The translations under genes were made by a program, and so were the position numbers. Under the pieces are notes generated by a model. The model saw nothing but the letters and a program-made list of their open reading frames with translations, ran no database searches and was not told where the DNA came from. A stretch of DNA of 53,445 nt, counting the filler, from Thelocarpon superellum (taxonomy: Eukaryota), in NCBI GenBank assembly GCA_026025795.1. It is 2 parts of 2 records of this genome, joined end to end, with 100 filler letters (N's around TTAATTAATTAA, not from the genome) between each part and the next. Parts side by side here need not be neighbours in the genome. Positions count along the whole stretch, not along the records: positions 26,826 to 53,445 come from JAPEUG010000256.1; 1 more part is not named here. One strand, 5' to 3'. The stretch's first letter is position 1, and each line of letters opens with the position of its first letter. Positions 26,726 to 52,312 of this stretch are shown here, piece by piece.

Positions 26726-26825
26726 NNNNNNNNNNNNNNNNNNNNNNNNNNNNNNNNNNNNNNNNNNNNTTAATTAATTAANNNNNNNNNNNNNNNNNNN
26801 NNNNNNNNNNNNNNNNNNNNNNNNN
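26726..26825. other. artificial contig-join spacer
   Basis: 44 N + TTAATTAATTAA (stop codons in all six frames) + 44 N, totalling exactly 100 bp. Confidence 0.97.
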
Positions 26826-43577: not shown

Positions 43578-46434
43578 TCACCCCAATCCCTGGAAGAAAC
43601 GACACGCCTCCACGATATCGTCATCGCCATTGGCAAAGTCCCAGCCCATGATGTGCGGGTCCTGACTGCAGCAGATGACGCGACGGGCGTCAAACTGCAG
43701 CTTGAAGACGCGCGAGTTGCCGCCGTTGGGGCCCGGCGCGTGCAGCGCCGCGGGGGGATGATGCGCTGTTGCGGATCCAGCCCCGGCGGCGTGGGCAGCA
43801 GCCGGACCGGCCCCAGCCCCTGCGCCGGTAGCCGCACCAGCCCCCGTGCCCGCCGCAGCGGCGTGGTGATGGTGGTGGTGATGGTGATGATGCGCGGCCG
43901 CGTTGACGATGGCGTTCTGCGCTTGGGCCTGCTGATGCGCGCTGAGCTGCGCAAAGGCCTGCGCGAAGTTGACCGGCACGCCGCCCTGCGTGGCTGGGAA
44001 GGTCATCTGGAGCATTTGGTGCGTCTGCTGTGCCTGCACCATCTGTTGCTGGTGCGCCAGGAGTTGCTGTTGGAGTATCGGCGTGGGGGTTGGCTGGTGG
44101 TGTGGTGGGCTAGTCGGGGGGGGGCCCAGTGGCTGTGTGGTGGCGTTGGCGCCGGTGGCCGGAGGGCTCTGGTGGGCTGATGTAGATGCTGACGCTGGTG
44201 CTGGTGCGTGTCCTTGAGCCTGGTGTGACGGACCGGCCTGAGCGGGTGTCGGAGGTGGAGCAGCGGGAGCGGCGGCAGCTGCAGTAGCTGCTGCCGCCGC
44301 GAGTGAGAGATGGTGATGAGTGTGAGGTGCAGTCGCCGCATGCGCGGTGTGTCCCCGCGTGCTCCTCGTCGTGTCTTCTTGTCGTAAGCGATGGCCGACC
44401 ACCCACTTGCCCTCTTGATCCCGCTTCCAGATGATGACCGACTCGTCGTAGGAGCCGGACACGATCCGTCCCCACCGACTCCCCCCCCCACCAGGCGGCA
44501 AGGCCGCGCCCAGAGCCGTGATCTGCCGTGGGTCCCGCGAGCCAGCATTTCGCGCCCTGGCCGCCGCCGAGCCCACGGCGATCGGATCAAGCTCGCCCTT
44601 GTCGTGCGCGTCGAAGAAGGATTGATCCACCGCCCGTGCGTCCGCCCGGTCATCCTCTTCGCTGCCTGGAAGATCGCCAAAGCCCGCTTGCACCGTGCGC
44701 ACGAGATACTGATGTCCCAGGAGACATGCCACCTCGGCGCCCGTGACCCGATCAAAGATCTTGACGGTGTTGTCGCTGCTCCCGCTGACGATGCGGCGAC
44801 CGTCGAATTGGACGCACGCGATGCCTTTGTTGTGGCCGGGGATCGTCATGACGCACACGCCACTCTGCAGGTTCCAGATCTTGATGGTGCGGTCGCCCGA
44901 CGCCGACACAATCTGGTCGCCGTGCACTTGGATCGCATTGACCGCCGCGTTGTGTCCGTGGAGCGTCATCAGGTGGGAGAAGCGCGGGAGCGATGGGGGT
45001 CGCGGCGTGCTGCCCAAGTTTGCCTCGGCCGTCAGCGAGGGCCCGCCAACCATGCTGAGCACATGGGCCGGGAAGAAGGCGCCGCCATGTCCCGCCTGGG
45101 CCGCGCCGGCGGGGAAGTCGGGATCGGTGGCCGTCAGCTGCCGTCGGTTCCAGACGTTGACCGTCTTGTCCTTGGAGCAGGTGATGAGGTAGCGCTTATC
45201 GAAGCGGAGGTTGAGCACCGATTCAGTATGCGCCTGTCGGATCTTCTTGATCTTCTCGCCGGTGGAGAAGCGCCAGACAATGACGTCGGTGTCGCTGCTG
45301 CCGGAGATGATGAGGTCTTCGTCCTCGCTCGGGTCGAACTGCAGGCACAGCACAGAGCCGACGTGACCGAGCAACGGCTTCCGCACGAGCCGTCGCGTGT
45401 CCAGGTTCCAGATGCGCAAGCTCTTGTCGCGACTGCCGCTGACCAGATACTTGCCGCAGTACTGGATCGTGTACACGCACTCCACATGCCCTTCGTCCTC
45501 GTGATCCGGGTGCGGCAGTCGAAAGTTGACGAAGCGGCCGGCACTCCAGTTATCTTCCAATCGTCTCCGTTGCTTGTACAGATATTGCCATCCGAGCTTC
45601 CTCCGTCCCACCTCGGCCGCTACGGTCAGGGTCGGACGGATGGGAGTGGCCATGGACACGGCGGCGGCCATCGACGGATCCGGCGTGGCGTGAGTCGTCG
45701 CCGACGTCGACCGATCGCCCACATCCGTCATCTCTTGATCCTCGGGCGCGTCTGGAAGATTGGGGTCGCGACCCTCGGTAGGTCGCATCGGGCCCATCGC
45801 CCCCCCTCCACGTTGTAACTCCTCCTCGTACTGGCGCACCTCTCGGGCCTCGACCGCCCATCCTTCTCGACCATAGAGATCCTTCCACAGCCGTGAATCC
45901 ACCGCGCGTTCCCGCCAGGCCTTGGAGATGGCCGACGCAATGAGCAAGGCACGCGGCTCGAGGTAGGAGAAGATCTGAAACGTGAGCTCCGGAGGTAGAT
46001 AGTGGATCGGGTCGAGGTGCAGGATGGGATGCAGGCGTTCGATGATGGAGGTCATGGACGAGGCTCGAAGGGTCCGGAGGATGCTGTACGCCAATTCTAC
46101 CACCCGGCCTCCATTAGCCTGTAGTAGAGAGAGGAGGACGCGCGCCTGTGTCGAAATCGGGATCATGCTTACCGCTACGATCCGCCTCGGGCAAGGTGGT
46201 GATCCACGGGGGCAGCCCGACGTCCGTGGTGTCCATGGTCAGGTCGCCGGCGCGAGACGACGGGGTGAAGACGGCGGCATCGCTGCCGGCCTGACTCCGC
46301 GTCTCCTCGGAGTAGCCTTCGTCGACCTTGAAGGAGGTCTGCATGGGATCATGGGGGAGTGCGGAATGAAAGTGCGCGGCGCCGGCGGGAATGGTGCCGG
46401 CCGCGGAGACAGTTGGCAGGTTGGGGGGCATCAT
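43578..46434 (-). CDS. F-box/WD40 SCF substrate adaptor (FWD-1/Fbx23/Pof11-like)
   Basis: FKVDEGYSEETRS, F-box LDPIHYLPPELTFQIFSYL, WD40 repeats (GHVECVYTIQY, GHVGSVLCLQFD, GHNKGIACVQFD) and terminal RVFKLQFDARRVICCSQD. Intron 46097-46172. Confidence 0.9.
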
Positions 46435-48193
46435 GGTGGTGTTGTGCAGGCCGGCGCTTCCGCGAGGCGGTGATGATCCGCGTCGACGCAAGCACTCCAC
46501 CGAGGCCCGTCCAGAGTGGCGGCAGGCGGAAGACGCTCGTCGAGTGGACCGGATGGTCTAGTACATGCTGCCGGTATCGCCAGGCCGTCCCAATCGCTCT
46601 CCGAGCCCGGTGTCTCTGCCGTGATCGCGTCGGTCGTCGTGCACGCCGGACTCATCCTCATTCCAGGCAACCGCTCCATCACAACCATTAGGTAAGCGCG
46701 CATAATGCTCGTTTGTTGTTTGCGGGATGTCCTTAGCTAAGCAGTCGAGTGACGAGCGAGGGGCGAGGGGCGAACGAGCGCGAAGGTTATCTAACCTTTT
46801 CGCATGAATTCCACCTGGCCATTCATTCAGCCATTTCCCGCGGTCGGCGGTGTTAATTACGAGTGGCTAATCGGCCAGTGACGAGTCCTCTTTCCAAACC
46901 ATTATTGGTTTTTGGTCTTACGGCTCTCCTGTGTGGCTCTGGAATCCTTCACAGACGATGGGGACCGTAGAACCGATGCCTCATTGCGTATCTGTCTCGT
47001 CGCCGACCATCGAATCTGGTCGTCTTGGCGCACCTCGGGATCCCCCCACGCTCCAACCGGGCCGTGTGCACATTCACTGCGGACCGACGACTACATTTTC
47101 AGTCACCACGCGGTGATGAGCAGTTGGACCTACGTCCTTAGGCGAAACACCGGTGACGATGAGATCAAAGCACTCGCAACGGACTTTGTACCCGTCCAGG
47201 ACGTCCCATGTCCGTAAGGTCAGCTTGCATGGTACATGTACCTCCGCTCGATGGAGGCCGGAAGGCTCCGTAGGGTACTCGTACTTCACCTTCTCATACG
47301 CCCTTCCACGCGGCGCCACGCCGGACCCGACCCAAATCCCGAGTGTTTGAGACTAGACCGGAAGGGTTGACAGGCGTGAGACCAGTGCCGGCGTATCTGT
47401 TTCCACTCTTCCAGAAGCCACCCTCCACGTCTGGGTCGTCGGAGCCCCACCCCGCTTATGCGTCTCGCCGTCATGACAATTGGAGGGGTCGTGGAGGACG
47501 TTGATGACGTCCGTGGAGACGGAGCCAGAGGGTCTTGCGGGCGCGCGAGCATCGGTGCCGCCCGCGAGGAAGGACGGTGGCGGCCGTCACTACTGACTTC
47601 CCATGTCTCCCACCTCTCCCACGTTGTCTGGTGCGCGCCTCGTCGCTCGCCATTCGCGTTGGGGTTAAGCGCGCACGCCAACTGATCCGATCGGTGCAGG
47701 ACGCGGTGTAGGAGTAGCTTAGCGGAGGGTCAAGGACGGCGGACCCCGTAACGTAACTCGTCGTATCTTCCACTAGGCTGCCTGGGTCGTCGGAGGGGAA
47801 CAGCCGAGCGGTACAGCGGCGTCGGTGCGAAGCAGCAGCGCTAACATTGCCGCGTGGTACCTCTACCACGAGCGTGGGTACTCATGCCGGCACCGGCGTG
47901 GTACGAGGTACTTGCACCACCGTACCGCAGCGACTCCGGCGCCGCTGCATGGCCCTGCGCGCTCCCCTTGGGTGGTGCACGACAGACCCGATGGGCCTCA
48001 CGCCAGAGTCCACCACATTCACGTCCAGGCCCGTACCCATGTCCAGCCCTCACCTCACCTCCAGCCATCCACCTCACCCTCCTCACTCGTCTCATCCCAT
48101 CCGCCTCATCGGTACGCCTCCTGGGCTCACGGACCGTGCCCACGCCCGTCCGTCCCGGTCGGCCCATGCCCACGTAGGCTCGTCGCCGCCGTG

Positions 48194-51100
48194 ATGCGTG
48201 CGCAGACGGCCTCCTCGGCAGTGTACACGCGAGCGATGAACGCCGGCGGTCCCAGCCCTCTCGTCCAGACGCAGAGTCACCAGAGTATCGCGAGCCATCA
48301 CAGCATGCAGAGCCATCCGAGCCACCTCAGCGGCTACGCCCACACGTCCGCCCTCTCCGGCGCCAGCCTCGTCACCTCCCGTCCCGGCACCTTGCCCGCG
48401 CCGCCGCCCCACGTCAACGGCCACGCCGCGCCCGCGCCGCCGGCCAATGGCGCGCCTGTCATGGCCAGCGACAGCATCATCAATCAGGTGGCCGACTCGT
48501 CCAAGTCCCTCTACCAGATCTGCGTCAAGTTGCGCCAGCGGCTCAGCGAGGTGCCGGGCTTCCAGCAGCATCTCGAGGAGATGGAAGAGGACGATAGCGT
48601 CAGCGTCGACGAGCCCGTCGATCCGGTCGAGTCCATGTGGCGCTGCCTGCGGAAGGGATACCCGCTCATGACCGTCTACAACGCGCTCAACCCCCCGGCC
48701 CGGCTTGAGGTCGATCCCACCAAGGTGGCCGAGGCCAAACGCGCCAAGACGGCCTCCTTCAAGTTCGTGCAGGCCTGCCTCAGGGATCTCAACTTCCCGC
48801 CCGACGAGTGCTTCCTAATCATGGACCTGTACGGCGACGACACCACGGGCTTCGTCAAGGTCACCACCGTCGTCAACCGCGTGCTCGACATCCTGCAGCA
48901 GCGCAACCTGCTGATGCGGCCCGAGGTGCGCGACCCCACCACCGCCATCGAGCAGACGCAGAAGCGCACCCGGCGCGACTACGTCGTGAGCGAGCTGGTC
49001 AACACCGAGCGCAAGTACGTGCAGGACCTCGAGACGCTGCAGCAGTTCAAGAAGCTGGTCGAGGAGAAGGGCGAGGTGGCCGGCGACACCATCCACGCCA
49101 TCTTCCTCAATCTCAACGCCTTGCTCGATTTCCAGCGCCGCTTCCTCATCCGCATCGAGACCATGAACTCCCTCCCCGACGAGCAGCAGAACTGGGGCCA
49201 GCTCTTCACCCAGTACCACGACGCCTTTCGCGTCTACGAACCCTACATCGCCAACCAGCAGAACGCCGAGGAGCAGGCGATGCGCGAGTTCGACAAGCTG
49301 CAGAAGGTCGGCCACCGCATCACCAACGACCGCGCCACCTTGAGTGGCTTCCTGCTCAAGCCCTTCCAACGCCTCTCCAAATACCCGCTCTTGCTCAAGG
49401 TACTTGCCGAAGCCACGACCGCCGGCACCGCCGCGCCCCTGGCTCGCCCACTAACCCACGAGCAGGAGCTCCGCGACAAGTGCAATTCCGAAGAGCATCT
49501 CCGCGAAGACATCAGCAGCGGCATCGAGTCCGCCGCGGCCGTGCTGAAGCAAGCCAACGCGGCCATCGACAAGCAGCAACGCCAGCTGGCCGTCGACGAA
49601 TTGCGCACGCGCGTCGAGGAGTGGAAAGGCCACGACATCCAACAGTTTGGCGAGCTCCTGCTCTACGGCACCTTTACCGTCGTCAAGGGCGATGGCCGCA
49701 ATGACGTCGAGCGAGAGGTTCGTAACCCTTCCAGTCAGCGCACCTTCTTCCGCGCCCGGGGACGCCTGGTGTCCTGGCCCTTTTCCCGTGCCTCCTCCTC
49801 CTCCTCCTCCTCCCCCACGACGTCCACGTCCGAGGCCCTGCCCCAAGAGATGTCCGATCCCTTTGTCGTCCGCCCCGCACCTGGAGACCCGCCACTGCCG
49901 GAACGCCAAGGATCTGTGCCGGGGTCAAGCGCTTCGCTTGAGCCCACTTGCCCCGTTTTTGCTTCATCTTCATCTGCTTCACCGTGCCCCAGCCCCACGT
50001 CGCCCGACACACCCGACCTGATGTTGTCACCGACCGAGGAAGGGTTTCCCTCCGTCGGCCCCGACGCCCCTATCCCCACCGAGTCTTATGAGGGAGAGCC
50101 GCGCTCACCTGAAGACCCGTACCTGTCGCACCAGCTCACGCTGCAGCAAATCTTGGCGCAGGGTCCCCCGAGCGAGCCCTGCGGTTCCCCGCTCGTCAGC
50201 CCGGGCGAGCATGCCGCCGTGACCCTGGGCACGGGGATCTCGCCGTCGGACTCCAGCTGCACCATCACGCCCTCCACGGCGGGTTTGACGCGTGCGCCGG
50301 ACGCGGAGTCGACGGTGGACCCCGCCCCCAGCCTGGAGAGCCAGCCGGCCAAGGCGCGCGCCAGGAGTGCACCTACCACGCCGTCGTGGCGGCGCAAATT
50401 CTCCTGGACCTTTGGACCAGCCGAGGACGAGGAGGAGAAGCTGCAGCCCTTGCAGGACGGCACCGTACTCGTGGAGAAGCGTGCCGCGGACAACCCTGGC
50501 CTGGACCCATTGGAGAAGACGTATGCTAACGAGATCGGGGCGATTGCCCCGCGCTGCTACCAGTATAAGATCTTCCTCTTCGAACGTATCCTCCTCTGCT
50601 GCAAGGAGCAGAACCCGAACCGGCAGAAGAACAAGGTGATGAGCATGAACAAGCCAGCGCAGGACAAGAAGGGCAAGCCCAAGTTGCAGCTCAAGGGCCG
50701 CATCTTCATGCAGAATGTGACGGAGACCTTGTCCCTGCAGAAACCCGGTGCGTGGTCCATGCCGGGCGGCCCCGCCCTGGCCGCGTGCCGCGTGGCCATG
50801 TACTGATGCCCCTGCGTTGCTCTAGGCTCCTACACCATCCAGATCTTCTGGAAGGGCGACCCCGGCGTCGAGAACTTTGTCATCCGCTTCACCAACGAAG
50901 AGACGATGAAGAAGTGGTATGATCGGGTGGAGGAGCAGCGCAAGTTCTACACCGACGCATCCAAAGCCTCAGGCACGCGGATCGGCGGCGGCACGTCCGA
51001 CACCGAGTTTGCCTGGGTCAAGAACCAAGCCATCCCCAATCCGTATCAACAAGACGACGGCGACGATGACGACGAGGAAGACCTGCTGCCGGAGACTGGT

Positions 51101-52312
51101 TATCACGGCGGCAGCGCCAACGGCATCGCCGCCGCCAACGCCACGGCCAACCCCAACTCGGAATTCAACATGAGCCGGAATGCCTCCAACACCAGCCTGC
51201 GCTCGCGCTCGACCACGGGCGACAGCGGCGGCTCGGTGCTGACCAACGGCACGCGGGCGCCGCCGCCGCGCTTCCCCATGGGCTTCACGCCGCCGCCGGC
51301 GCTCACGCTGCACACGCAGATGTCGAGCAACATGCCGTCGCCCGGCGAGCAAGGCGGCGCGTCGTACTTTTCGCCCGCCGCCGAGTCGCCCGTGTCATCG
51401 CGGACCAGCTCGAGTAACGCGATGTATCCCTTCCCGCGTCAGGCGACGCCCAACGGCCACAACGGCTGGCCCGAGGAGCACAACCGCTTCACGGCGCCGG
51501 CCATGGGCCGGACGGCGATGCGGCCCTCGCTCCCGGCCATGGCGTCGCAGTCGGCCACGACGGCGCCGGTGACGCTGACGCAGCAGCGCTCGCGCTCGGC
51601 CAGCAGCCCGGACATTCACAATCGCATCATCTCCGGTCACCGGATGCCCAACGGGCAGGCGCAGCCGCCGGTGCCGGACGTGCCGATGCCGCCCTTGCCC
51701 GCGCACATCGCCTACATGAAGGGCCCGGTCAGCCGCAGCCCGAACCACTCGCCCACGAATCTGCCGAGCGGCCAGGCGCTCCCCAACCGCTCGTCGAATC
51801 ACTCGCCGGGGATGCCGCGCGACCGATCGCTGCAGCACCGCTACACGCAACCGCACGGCCACGAGCACGAGCGCCACGACGCGCCGCGCGCCTTCCTCCA
51901 GTCACGCAACACCACGCCCATCCCGGCGTCATCCATGGACAGCCGGCCGCCGACGTCGTCGGGCCCGATGGCCCCGCTGGCCCTGCCGCATGACCACCTG
52001 GCGGCGCCGACGCAGCTCAAGGTCAAGGTGTCGTTTGACAACAATTACGTGACGCTGGTGGTGGGCATGAACATCAGCTACCAGTCGCTGGTGGACCGGA
52101 TTGACGCCAAGCTGTCGCGCTTCACCACCCTGTCCATCGGCCGCGGCACCATCCGTTTGCGCTACCAGGACGAGGACGGAGACTTTGTGACGATCCGGTC
52201 GGACGAGGACATCCACATCGCCTTCACCGACTGGAAGGAGCAGCAACGCTCGCAGTTGATGCAGGGCCAACTGGGCGAGATCCAGCTCTACTGCCAAGGG
52301 CTGGAGACGTGA
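48194..52312 (+). CDS. CDC24: Cdc42/Rac GEF Cdc24/Scd1 (CH-DH-PH-PB1); exact start uncertain
   Basis: SKSLYQIC, LYGDDTTGFVKV, ELVNTERKYVQDLE (DH), LLKPFQRLSKYPLLL, YKIFLFERILLCCKE (PH) and LRYQDEDGDFVTI (PB1). Introns 49400-49465, 49718-50563 and 50748-50825. Confidence 0.96.

What the first reader, a model, noticed from the sequence alone, without database searches (positions are those of the whole stretch)
49718..50563. CDC24 PH-domain intron is 846 nt, frame-preserving, stop-free and looks protein-coding (retained intron/exitron or internal-start isoform)
Seen: conserved PH sequence stops at GDGRNDVERE and resumes at YKIFLFERILLCCKE. The gap has a GTTCGT donor (49718), a GCTAAC branch (50525) and a CAG acceptor (50563), so it is spliceable. 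It is over ten times longer than the other introns resolved in the window (about 48-78 nt), is exactly 282 codons, has no in-frame stop, and its 3' part shows GC3-biased codons. It would encode a Ser/Pro-rich disordered segment with many SP/TP sites and an RRKFS PKA-like site, and has in-frame ATGs at 49850 and 50021. Inference: retention would split the PH fold of the polarity GEF with a phospho-regulatable insert. An internal start would instead give a GEF-less PH-half/PB1 isoform able to compete for Bem1. My rough estimate is that a stop-free run this long is unlikely by chance at this GC content (well under 1 in 100).
Basis: partly seen in the sequence, partly recalled or inferred. Interest (0 to 1): 0.75.

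Follow-up and report, generated by a model that had tools for sequence, protein, structure and literature searches.

The report
Ancient translatable intron in fungal CDC24
The long "intron" inside the polarity gene CDC24 of this lichen fungus belongs to an old family of spliceable segments that many ascomycetes keep free of stop codons and in frame, so it probably gives two protein forms.

Summary
Window 49718-50563 is 846 nt (282 codons) with no in-frame stop. It is bounded by the only GTNNGT donor and the only branch-plus-YAG acceptor in the region. The window is Thelocarpon superellum CDC24; the deposited model reads the segment as coding.

Chance is unlikely: 86 of 20,000 dinucleotide shuffles are stop-free. 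Codon periodicity (chi2 45.8) exceeds all 93 non-coding control windows.

The segment is not an orphan oddity. Of 165 orthologue models, 38 carry an in-frame insert of 108-375 aa at exactly this junction. In 80 metagenome loci read as DNA, all 8 distinct introns of 300 nt or more at this site are 3n and stop-free. None of the 6 of 111-299 nt is, and 3 of the 28 short ones are.

A Letharia contig ORF lacks its 303-codon insert precisely, so the segment is spliced there.

Peptide constraint is weak. AlphaFold models keep the PH fold, with the insert as a disordered beta1/beta2 loop.

Best reading: an ancient exitron-like segment. No RNA data exist for Thelocarpon. The internal-start idea has no support.

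The parts
48194..52312 (+). CDC24/Scd1-type Cdc42 GEF gene (my model: ATG 48194, TGA 52310-52312)
   Evidence: Pfam on deposited protein P0001: CDC24 calponin, RhoGEF, PH_10 and PB1, all above their cut-offs. P0001 matches the translation of 49718-50563 at 100% identity, and its printed sequence matches the window's exon frames.
49400..49465 (+). Intron 1, 66 nt, GTACTT..ACTAAC..CAG; also 3n and stop-free
   Evidence: The deposited model reads it through, adding 22 aa inside the conserved KYPLLLK|ELRDK stretch, which is contiguous in orthologues.
49466..49717 (+). Exon 2: end of DH, linker helix, PH strand beta1 and first half of beta2 (ends ..GDGRNDVERE)
   Evidence: strand 64-74 of the model.
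49718..50563 (+). The 846-nt spliceable, in-frame, stop-free segment (282 codons)
49718..49723 (+). Donor GTTCGT, read in frame as Val-Arg
   Evidence: 36 of 38 long inserts in orthologue models start V[CGRS], that is GTN NGN. The 8 distinct long DNA introns (7 lineages) start GTACGA, GTACGG, GTACGC, GTCGGT or GTTCGT.
50390..50404 (+). RRKFS basic Ser motif
   Evidence: It aligns with RLFSF of the Trizodia insert. Basic-x-S/T motifs recur in other inserts. Any kinase assignment would be recalled, not tested.
50495..50563 (+). Family motif at the 3' end (PGLDPLEKTYANEIGAIAPRCYQ); holds the branch GCTAAC (50525-50530, read Ala-Asn) and the acceptor CAG (50561-50563, read Gln)
   Evidence: A profile of the last 24 aa of 14 other inserts has its best hit in all six frames of the window here (score 5.2, next best -2.8). 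Codon alignment.
50564..50749 (+). Exon 3: rest of beta2 (YKIFLFE), beta3 and the basic loop
50750..50825 (+). Intron 3, 76 nt, GTGCGT..TAG, phase 1
   Evidence: spliced in the deposited model.
50826..52312 (+). Exon 4: rest of PH, long disordered region, PB1

Best explanation
The 846 nt are the Thelocarpon member of an old, exitron-like segment in CDC24. It is a stretch bounded by working splice signals at a conserved phase-0 intron position, inside strand beta2 of the PH domain, and it is also kept translatable.

Spliced out, it gives the canonical PH domain (VERE|YKIF). Left in, it gives a Cdc24 whose beta1/beta2 hairpin carries a disordered Ser/Pro-rich loop of about 280 aa, with a short conserved module just before beta2.

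Shown:
- the signals, the open frame and the coding-like periodicity in Thelocarpon;
- preservation of the frame in every long version of this intron seen as DNA and in 38 orthologue models;
- fixation of splice-signal codons;
- a precisely spliced form in Letharia.

Inferred:
- that both forms are made in Thelocarpon;
- that the long form is translated;
- that the loop tunes membrane or partner contact of the PH domain, for example by phosphorylation.
For: In Thelocarpon:
- 0 frame-0 stops against 3-6 in the other frames, with shuffle P = 0.0043.
- Base composition by codon position gives chi2 45.8 (p = 3e-8; 3' half 40.0, GC3 0.86). The median of 93 non-coding 846-nt control windows is 9.4 and the maximum 19.2.
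- The donor and the branch/acceptor are unique in the region.
- The family's C-terminal motif sits at the expected place.
- Similarity to the Trizodia insert has z = 5.6 (0 of 300 shuffles reach it) and to Pycnora z = 3.1 (3 of 300).

Comparative, from gene models: of 165 orthologues, 38 have inserts of 108-375 aa at this exact junction, 11 have 12-30 aa, 112 have none and 4 are other or unresolved. 36 of the 38 start V[CGRS] and all 38 end in Q.

Comparative, from DNA with no gene-model bias: 80 metagenome loci gave 42 distinct introns at this site.
- 8 of 8 of 300 nt or more (324-909 nt, 7 lineages) are 3n and stop-free.
- 0 of 6 of 111-299 nt are.
- 3 of 28 of 110 nt or less are.
- The long ones have 0 stops in frame 0 against 2-16 in each other frame.

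Splice signals held within the reading frame: the branch Ala is GCT in 6 of 6 cases (GCT share in flanking exons is 0.18), and the last Gln is CAG in 7 of 7.

Protein level: 9 of 12 conserved residue columns use more than one codon. The 3 indels between L063 and L067 are all 6 nt. In 19 Teloschistaceae the frame stays open although insert identity is 0.36, against 0.80-0.86 in the flanks.

Splicing: the Letharia lupina genome model P0142 and the contig ORF P0146 are 98-99% identical on both sides, and P0146 lacks the 303 aa precisely. The Xanthoria models also lack the insert.

Fold: the PH core stays confident with the insert as a loop.
Against: - No RNA exists for Thelocarpon, so neither splicing nor retention is seen in this organism.
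- No transcript with a retained long insert was found anywhere. All seven long-insert loci still hold other introns, so they are genomic.
- Peptide constraint is weak. In the closest DNA pair, mismatches are 0.262/0.271/0.299 over codon positions, against 0.10/0.05/0.45 in the flanking exon. NG86 dN/dS is 0.63 (0.34-1.12). In the last 21 codons pN/pS is about 0.7.
- Periodicity in the other long inserts is weak (chi2 7.6-18.8).
- The whole Thelocarpon insert finds no relative in 1.84 billion representatives.
- The nearest relatives' models (Sarcosagium, Piccolia) have no insert, and I could not see their DNA.
- That P0146 is a cDNA is inferred from its being one uninterrupted 993-aa ORF on a 5.9-kb contig. 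It is not known.
Confidence: 0.55

Rival explanations
1. Tolerated leak. The segment is an intron that is meant to be removed, but long fungal introns are spliced imperfectly. Versions with a stop would give a truncated protein (DH plus half a PH domain) that harms the cell, so only frame-preserving long versions persist. The inserted peptide has no function of its own.
For: - Weak and nearly position-independent substitution pattern, with dN/dS not clearly below 1.
- Very fast evolution: identity 0.36 within one family.
- Weak periodicity in most long inserts.
- The insert is predicted disordered.
- Many lineages reduced it to a short intron or let it decay: 6 of 6 introns of 111-299 nt carry stops or are not 3n, and L070 keeps the TACGCTGAC motif beside 4 stops.
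Against: - Residue islands are shared between classes with varying codons.
- GC3 of 0.86 in the Thelocarpon 3' half is exon-like rather than intergenic-like (0.53-0.63 per codon position in the two intergenic stretches).
- Persistence at 300-1100 nt in 7 or more lineages is not explained by mere tolerance.
Confidence: 0.2
2. Plain coding insert. In Thelocarpon the segment is never spliced, the deposited model is right, and the splice-like ends are relics of the ancestral intron.
For: - The deposited model reads it through.
- Exon-like GC3 in the 3' half.
- The fold tolerates the loop.
Against: - The same model also reads through intron 1, inside a conserved DH helix, so it is an uncritical ab initio call.
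- Donor, branch and CAG are intact and unique.
- The branch codon GCT and the final CAG are fixed across lineages, which only selection for splicing explains.
- The homologous segment is removed in Letharia.
Confidence: 0.12
3. Ordinary long intron, open by chance in this one species.
For: - P = 0.0043 is small but not negligible across a genome's introns.
- GC-rich DNA has few stops: about 0.025 per codon in flanking non-coding DNA.
- The 139 codons upstream of the ATG are also open.
Against: - Periodicity is beyond all 93 control windows, while the upstream open stretch has none (chi2 6.3).
- The family motif is present.
- 8 of 8 long DNA versions elsewhere are also open.
Confidence: 0.05
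4. Internal-start isoform. Transcription or translation starting at the ATG at 49850 or 50021 gives a GEF-less protein with the insert tail, a partial PH domain and PB1.
For: Only that two in-frame ATGs exist.
Against: No test was possible. Such a product would lack PH strand beta1. I did not test whether Met positions are conserved in other inserts.
Confidence: 0.03

Closest known systems
Exitrons (exonic introns; defined in Arabidopsis and human by Marquez et al. 2015, recalled and not read here)
   Same: - Flanked by coding sequence on both sides.
- Canonical splice signals.
- Length a multiple of three, no in-frame stop, some coding-like composition.
- Encodes a disordered, phosphosite-rich stretch.
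   Different: - Alternative use is not shown here by RNA.
- It sits at a position where relatives have an ordinary short intron.
- It is conserved across ascomycete classes, with weak peptide constraint.
- My searches found no paper describing exitrons in fungi: 15 of the 23 hits were listed and I judged them from the listing alone.
Ordinary fungal spliceosomal introns at the same CDC24 position
   Same: Same phase-0 site between ..ERE and YKIY.., GT..CTRAC..YAG signals.
   Different: Ordinary ones are 48-100 nt, of any length class, often with stops, and end in CAG, TAG or AAG. The long class is 324-909 nt, always 3n and stop-free, and always ends in CAG.
Cdc24 (S. cerevisiae) / Scd1 (S. pombe) Cdc42 GEFs
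   Same: CH, DH, PH_10 and PB1 architecture.
   Different: I know of no description of a long beta1/beta2 loop or of splice isoforms of the PH domain (searches; the statement about the yeast proteins is recalled).

Membership tests
CDC24/Scd1 family GEF | CDC24 calponin-like, RhoGEF (DH), PH_10 and PB1 domains in this order | tested here: met
   E = 3e-33, 2e-28, 5e-33 and 1e-9, all above the curated cut-offs. The PH_10 match starts at profile position 22, because the insert cuts off the first strand.
Exitron | Lies within coding sequence, with coding exons on both sides in one frame | tested here: met
Exitron | Canonical donor, branch and acceptor | tested here: met
   Signal codons are fixed across lineages.
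Exitron | Length 3n and no in-frame stop, more than chance | tested here: met
   8 of 8 long DNA homologues and 38 orthologue models.
Exitron | Exon-like sequence evolution (codon periodicity, dN/dS < 1) | tested here: inconclusive
   Periodicity is significant in Thelocarpon but weak elsewhere. dN/dS is 0.63 (0.34-1.12), with even mismatches over codon positions in the closest pair. Conserved residues do show synonymous codon variation.
Exitron | Both spliced and retained mRNAs exist | not testable with these tools
   No RNA run was listed. A spliced form was seen only for Letharia. No retained transcript was seen.
Exitron | Retained form is translated | not testable with these tools
   Only inferred from preservation of the frame.
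Constitutive spliceosomal intron | No constraint on reading frame or stops | tested here: not met

The most novel reading that the evidence does not exclude
Filamentous ascomycetes, many lichen fungi among them, have kept for hundreds of millions of years a regulated splice switch in the master polarity GEF Cdc24. One form has the canonical PH domain. The other has a long phospho-regulated loop in the lipid-facing beta1/beta2 hairpin. Polarity signalling would then be tuned at the level of splicing. Several lineages later lost the long form and kept only a short intron.
Probability: 0.35. Interest if true: 0.75.

Novelty: new member of a known kind. Interest (0 to 1): 0.62.

Why it matters
Cdc24 is the central activator of Cdc42 in fungal polarity and hyphal growth. 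Its regulation is usually discussed in terms of phosphorylation and scaffolds, not splicing.

A class-spanning segment that is both intron and open reading frame would be a rare, datable example of a conserved protein-coding retained intron in fungi.

It also bears on annotation. Ab initio pipelines read it through, as in the deposited Thelocarpon model and 37 other models, while at least one RNA-trained pipeline removes it. CDC24 lengths in databases therefore differ by 100-375 aa for reasons that have nothing to do with biology.

Tried and rejected
- RNA evidence: the look-up of sequencing runs listed no RNA holder, so read laying could not be used.
- Own genome: not held, so there are no genome-wide intron or codon statistics and no search for paralogous copies. 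Within the window the segment has no second copy beyond short low-complexity matches. This argues weakly against a repeated element.
- Homologues of the whole insert: the word-indexed search found only the window's own protein, 1 of 8000 candidates scored. HMMER against 1.84 billion representatives gave 0 hits. Pfam gave 0 families for three inserts. The ESM Atlas gave best score 0.84, below the useful range.
- RNA structure between branch and acceptor: a GGGGC/GCCCC hairpin seen by eye is not supported. RNAalifold on 7 sequences gave -2.2 kcal/mol, 9 pairs and 1 compensatory change.
- cDNA/genomic pairs among the metagenome loci: the 18 loci without an intron are at most 79% identical to the long-insert loci, so they say nothing about splicing of those.
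- 'Elasticomyces' P0152 (with insert) against P0103 (without): only 69% identical, so these are different genes or species, not two models of one locus.
- Earlier notes of this scan: none.
- Literature: three searches gave nothing on CDC24 splice isoforms or fungal exitrons. The passages of PMC12691695 that I read concern Cdc24 phosphorylation in Cryptococcus and are not relevant.
- My first regex-based junction tables left up to 25 proteins unresolved. I replaced them with local alignment to two anchor peptides.

Full report
**What is there.** The window's + strand holds a CDC24/Scd1-type Cdc42 exchange factor. Pfam finds CDC24-calponin, RhoGEF, PH_10 and PB1 domains in the deposited protein. 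That protein, P0001, is labelled as a Thelocarpon superellum metagenome-assembled genome entry of 1346 aa, and it matches the translated segment at 100% identity (taxonomy). My gene model:
- ATG at 48194
- intron 1, 49400-49465 (66 nt)
- exon 2, 49466-49717
- the segment, 49718-50563
- exon 3, 50564-50749
- intron 3, 50750-50825 (76 nt)
- exon 4, to the TGA at 52310-52312.

The deposited model reads both intron 1 and the 846-nt segment as protein. Intron 1 lies inside the conserved KYPLLLK|ELRDK stretch, which is contiguous in orthologues. That model is therefore an uncritical ab initio call and is no evidence that the segment is coding.

- The segment is 846 nt, 282 codons, with 0 stops in the exon frame and 3-6 in each other frame.
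- GTTCGT at 49718 is the only GTNNGT in 49650-50620. GCTAAC at 50525 is the only branch-like site followed by a YAG within 50 nt, and that YAG is the CAG ending at 50563.
- Only 86 of 20,000 dinucleotide-preserving shuffles have no frame-0 stop.
- Base composition depends on codon position: chi2 45.8, p = 3e-8. The 3' half gives 40.0 with GC3 0.86; the 5' half gives 16.7 with GC3 0.70. The 93 non-coding 846-nt control windows reach at most 19.2. The 139 open codons upstream of the ATG give 6.3.
- The peptide is 15.6% Ser and 15.6% Pro, with 12 [ST]P sites and one RRKFS.

**It is not a one-off.** Two searches with flanking DH/PH sequence gave 165 distinct orthologue models. I anchored each to the peptides on either side of the junction:
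- 112 have no insert;
- 11 have 12-30 aa, which are short introns read through;
- 38 have 108-375 aa at exactly this junction;
- 4 are other or unresolved.

By their database labels the 38 come from Thelocarpon, Sarea, Pycnora, Trizodia, Vezdaea, four Geoglossaceae, a Mollisiaceae, about 23 Teloschistaceae, Dirinaria, Letharia, Psora, an unnamed Lecanoromycetidae and a Capnodiales-like 'Elasticomyces'. Of the 38, 36 begin V[CGRS] (GTN NGN) and all 38 end in Q.

Gene models carry a bias: a predictor can only read through what is already open. I therefore fetched DNA.

**DNA without gene models.** A scan of metagenome contigs with an alignment of insert-free orthologues returned 80 CDC24 loci. 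The junction was unresolved in 5. Eighteen have no intron there. The other 57 have one, giving 42 distinct sequences.

| Intron length | Distinct sequences | 3n and stop-free |
|---|---|---|
| 110 nt or less | 28 | 3 |
| 111-299 nt | 6 | 0 |
| 300 nt or more (324-909 nt; 7 lineages, since L064 and L065 are near-identical) | 8 | 8 |

The long ones have 0 stops in frame 0 against 2-16 in each of the other five frames. From those counts a Poisson estimate of the chance of an open frame runs from about 1e-2 for the shortest to below 1e-6 for the 909-nt one (my arithmetic). All long-insert loci still hold other introns, so they are genomic DNA.

**Both a splice unit and a reading frame.** In a codon alignment of the last 50 codons of six DNA inserts plus Thelocarpon:
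- The Ala over the branch site is GCT in 6 of 6 cases, and the seventh sequence has ACT. GCT makes up 0.18 of Ala codons in the flanking exons.
- The final Gln is CAG in 7 of 7 cases (CAG share 0.65).
- 9 of 12 columns with a conserved residue use more than one codon. The three exceptions are Met, the branch Ala and the final Gln.

So splice signals are held inside the frame, and some residues are held through synonymous change.

Shared residue islands link the lineages:
- V.[VT]IFD..P at the start in Lecanoromycetes;
- a hydrophobic F[LF].NM.FH or NF.G.F island;
- L[AE]..YA[ND]..G...P...Q at the end.

A profile of the last 24 aa of 14 other inserts, run against all six frames of the window, has its best hit at the C-terminus of the Thelocarpon segment (score 5.2; next best -2.8). 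The Thelocarpon insert aligns with the Trizodia insert at z = 5.6, with 0 of 300 composition-preserving shuffles reaching the score. It aligns with the Pycnora insert at z = 3.1, with 3 of 300. Similarity to eleven others is not significant; for one more (P0152) it is marginal, z = 2.1 with 6 of 300 shuffles.

**It is spliced, at least in Letharia.** The Letharia lupina genome model P0142 (1281 aa, 303-aa insert) and P0146 are 98-99% identical on both sides, and P0146 lacks the insert exactly at VERE|YKVY. P0146 is a single 993-aa ORF on a 5.9-kb contig of a run assembly. An uninterrupted full-length ORF implies cDNA; that is my inference.

The Xanthoria parietina and X. calcicola models also lack the insert, while about 23 other Teloschistaceae models carry it. 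A preprint describes training the X. parietina annotation on culture transcriptomes (passages read). I did not verify that P0135 comes from that annotation.

**How strongly is the peptide constrained? Weakly.**
- Closest DNA pair, L063 and L067: mismatches are 0.262/0.271/0.299 over codon positions, against 0.098/0.049/0.451 and 0.035/0.035/0.456 in the flanking exons. The three indels are all 6 nt.
- Nei-Gojobori dN/dS is 0.63 (bootstrap 0.34-1.12). More distant pairs give about 0.44, but those alignments were made on protein and lean that way.
- In the last 21 codons pN/pS is about 0.7.
- In 19 Teloschistaceae, insert identity averages 0.36, against 0.80 and 0.86 in the flanks and 0.74 in the C-terminal disordered region. 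The frame nevertheless stays open in all of them.

What is selected is chiefly an open frame with a few short islands. That fits a disordered regulatory loop, but it also fits mere tolerance of leaky retention.

**Structure.** AlphaFold2 was run with 40-row alignments. The Thelocarpon DH-end/PH piece with the insert gave mean pLDDT 59.3, and the locus L067 piece gave 66.6. Both models keep a confident PH core. Strand beta1 and the YKI.LFE part of beta2 flank the insert, nearly all of which scores below 50. A low-confidence helix lies over the conserved terminal motif. Retention therefore lengthens and loosens the beta1/beta2 hairpin rather than breaking the fold. In PH domains generally this hairpin faces the membrane (recalled).

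**Losses.** The six medium-length introns carry stops or are not 3n. One of them, L070, still has TACGCTGAC where the family motif lies. Together with the many short introns, this suggests repeated loss of the long form. I built no tree, so direction and number of events remain inference.

**Verdict.** Its rivals and their confidences:
- a tolerated but functionless retained intron, 0.20;
- a never-spliced coding insert, 0.12;
- chance, 0.05;
- an internal-start isoform, 0.03.

The missing piece is RNA or protein evidence for the long form. Three literature searches found no description of this feature.

Noticed in passing
window 49400-49465: Intron 1 of CDC24 (66 nt, GTACTT..ACTAAC..CAG) is also 3n and stop-free. 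The deposited protein reads it through, putting 22 extra residues into the conserved KYPLLLK|ELRDK stretch of the DH domain. This is probably an annotation error.
   Followed up: partly
window 47777-48193: 139 codons upstream of the CDC24 ATG are open in the gene's frame but show no codon periodicity (chi2 6.3, GC by position 0.70/0.64/0.71). This looks like a chance open stretch in GC-rich DNA, not an N-terminal extension.
   Followed up: partly
L074:6661-7314 (also L077, L078): This 654-nt Leotiomycete-type insert holds three tandem copies of a basic motif of about 25 aa ([KR]RKA[ST]..S..R..SFTN). One copy of a similar KRKAL motif is in L046, P0110 and Geoglossaceae. It may be a repeated kinase or docking site; I did not test this.
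   Followed up: no
L070 (253-nt intron at the same junction): A medium-length intron that is not 3n and has 4 stops still carries TACGCTGAC at the place of the family's YA[ND] motif. It looks like a decayed former long version.
   Followed up: no
L063:3163-3242 versus L067:2518-2597: The last 70 nt or so of the two inserts differ at only 5 positions. Four of these change the residue, although third codon positions of the flanking exons differ at 45%. This points to nucleotide-level constraint near the branch and acceptor that a simple hairpin does not explain.
   Followed up: partly
window 26726-26769 and 26782-26825: Two runs of N (assembly gaps or masked stretches).
   Followed up: no
window 43578-46238, minus strand: Long open frame that reads like an F-box/WD40-repeat protein, with long Ala/Gln/His tracts at its C-terminus. 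This is by eye from the translation; no search was run.
   Followed up: no
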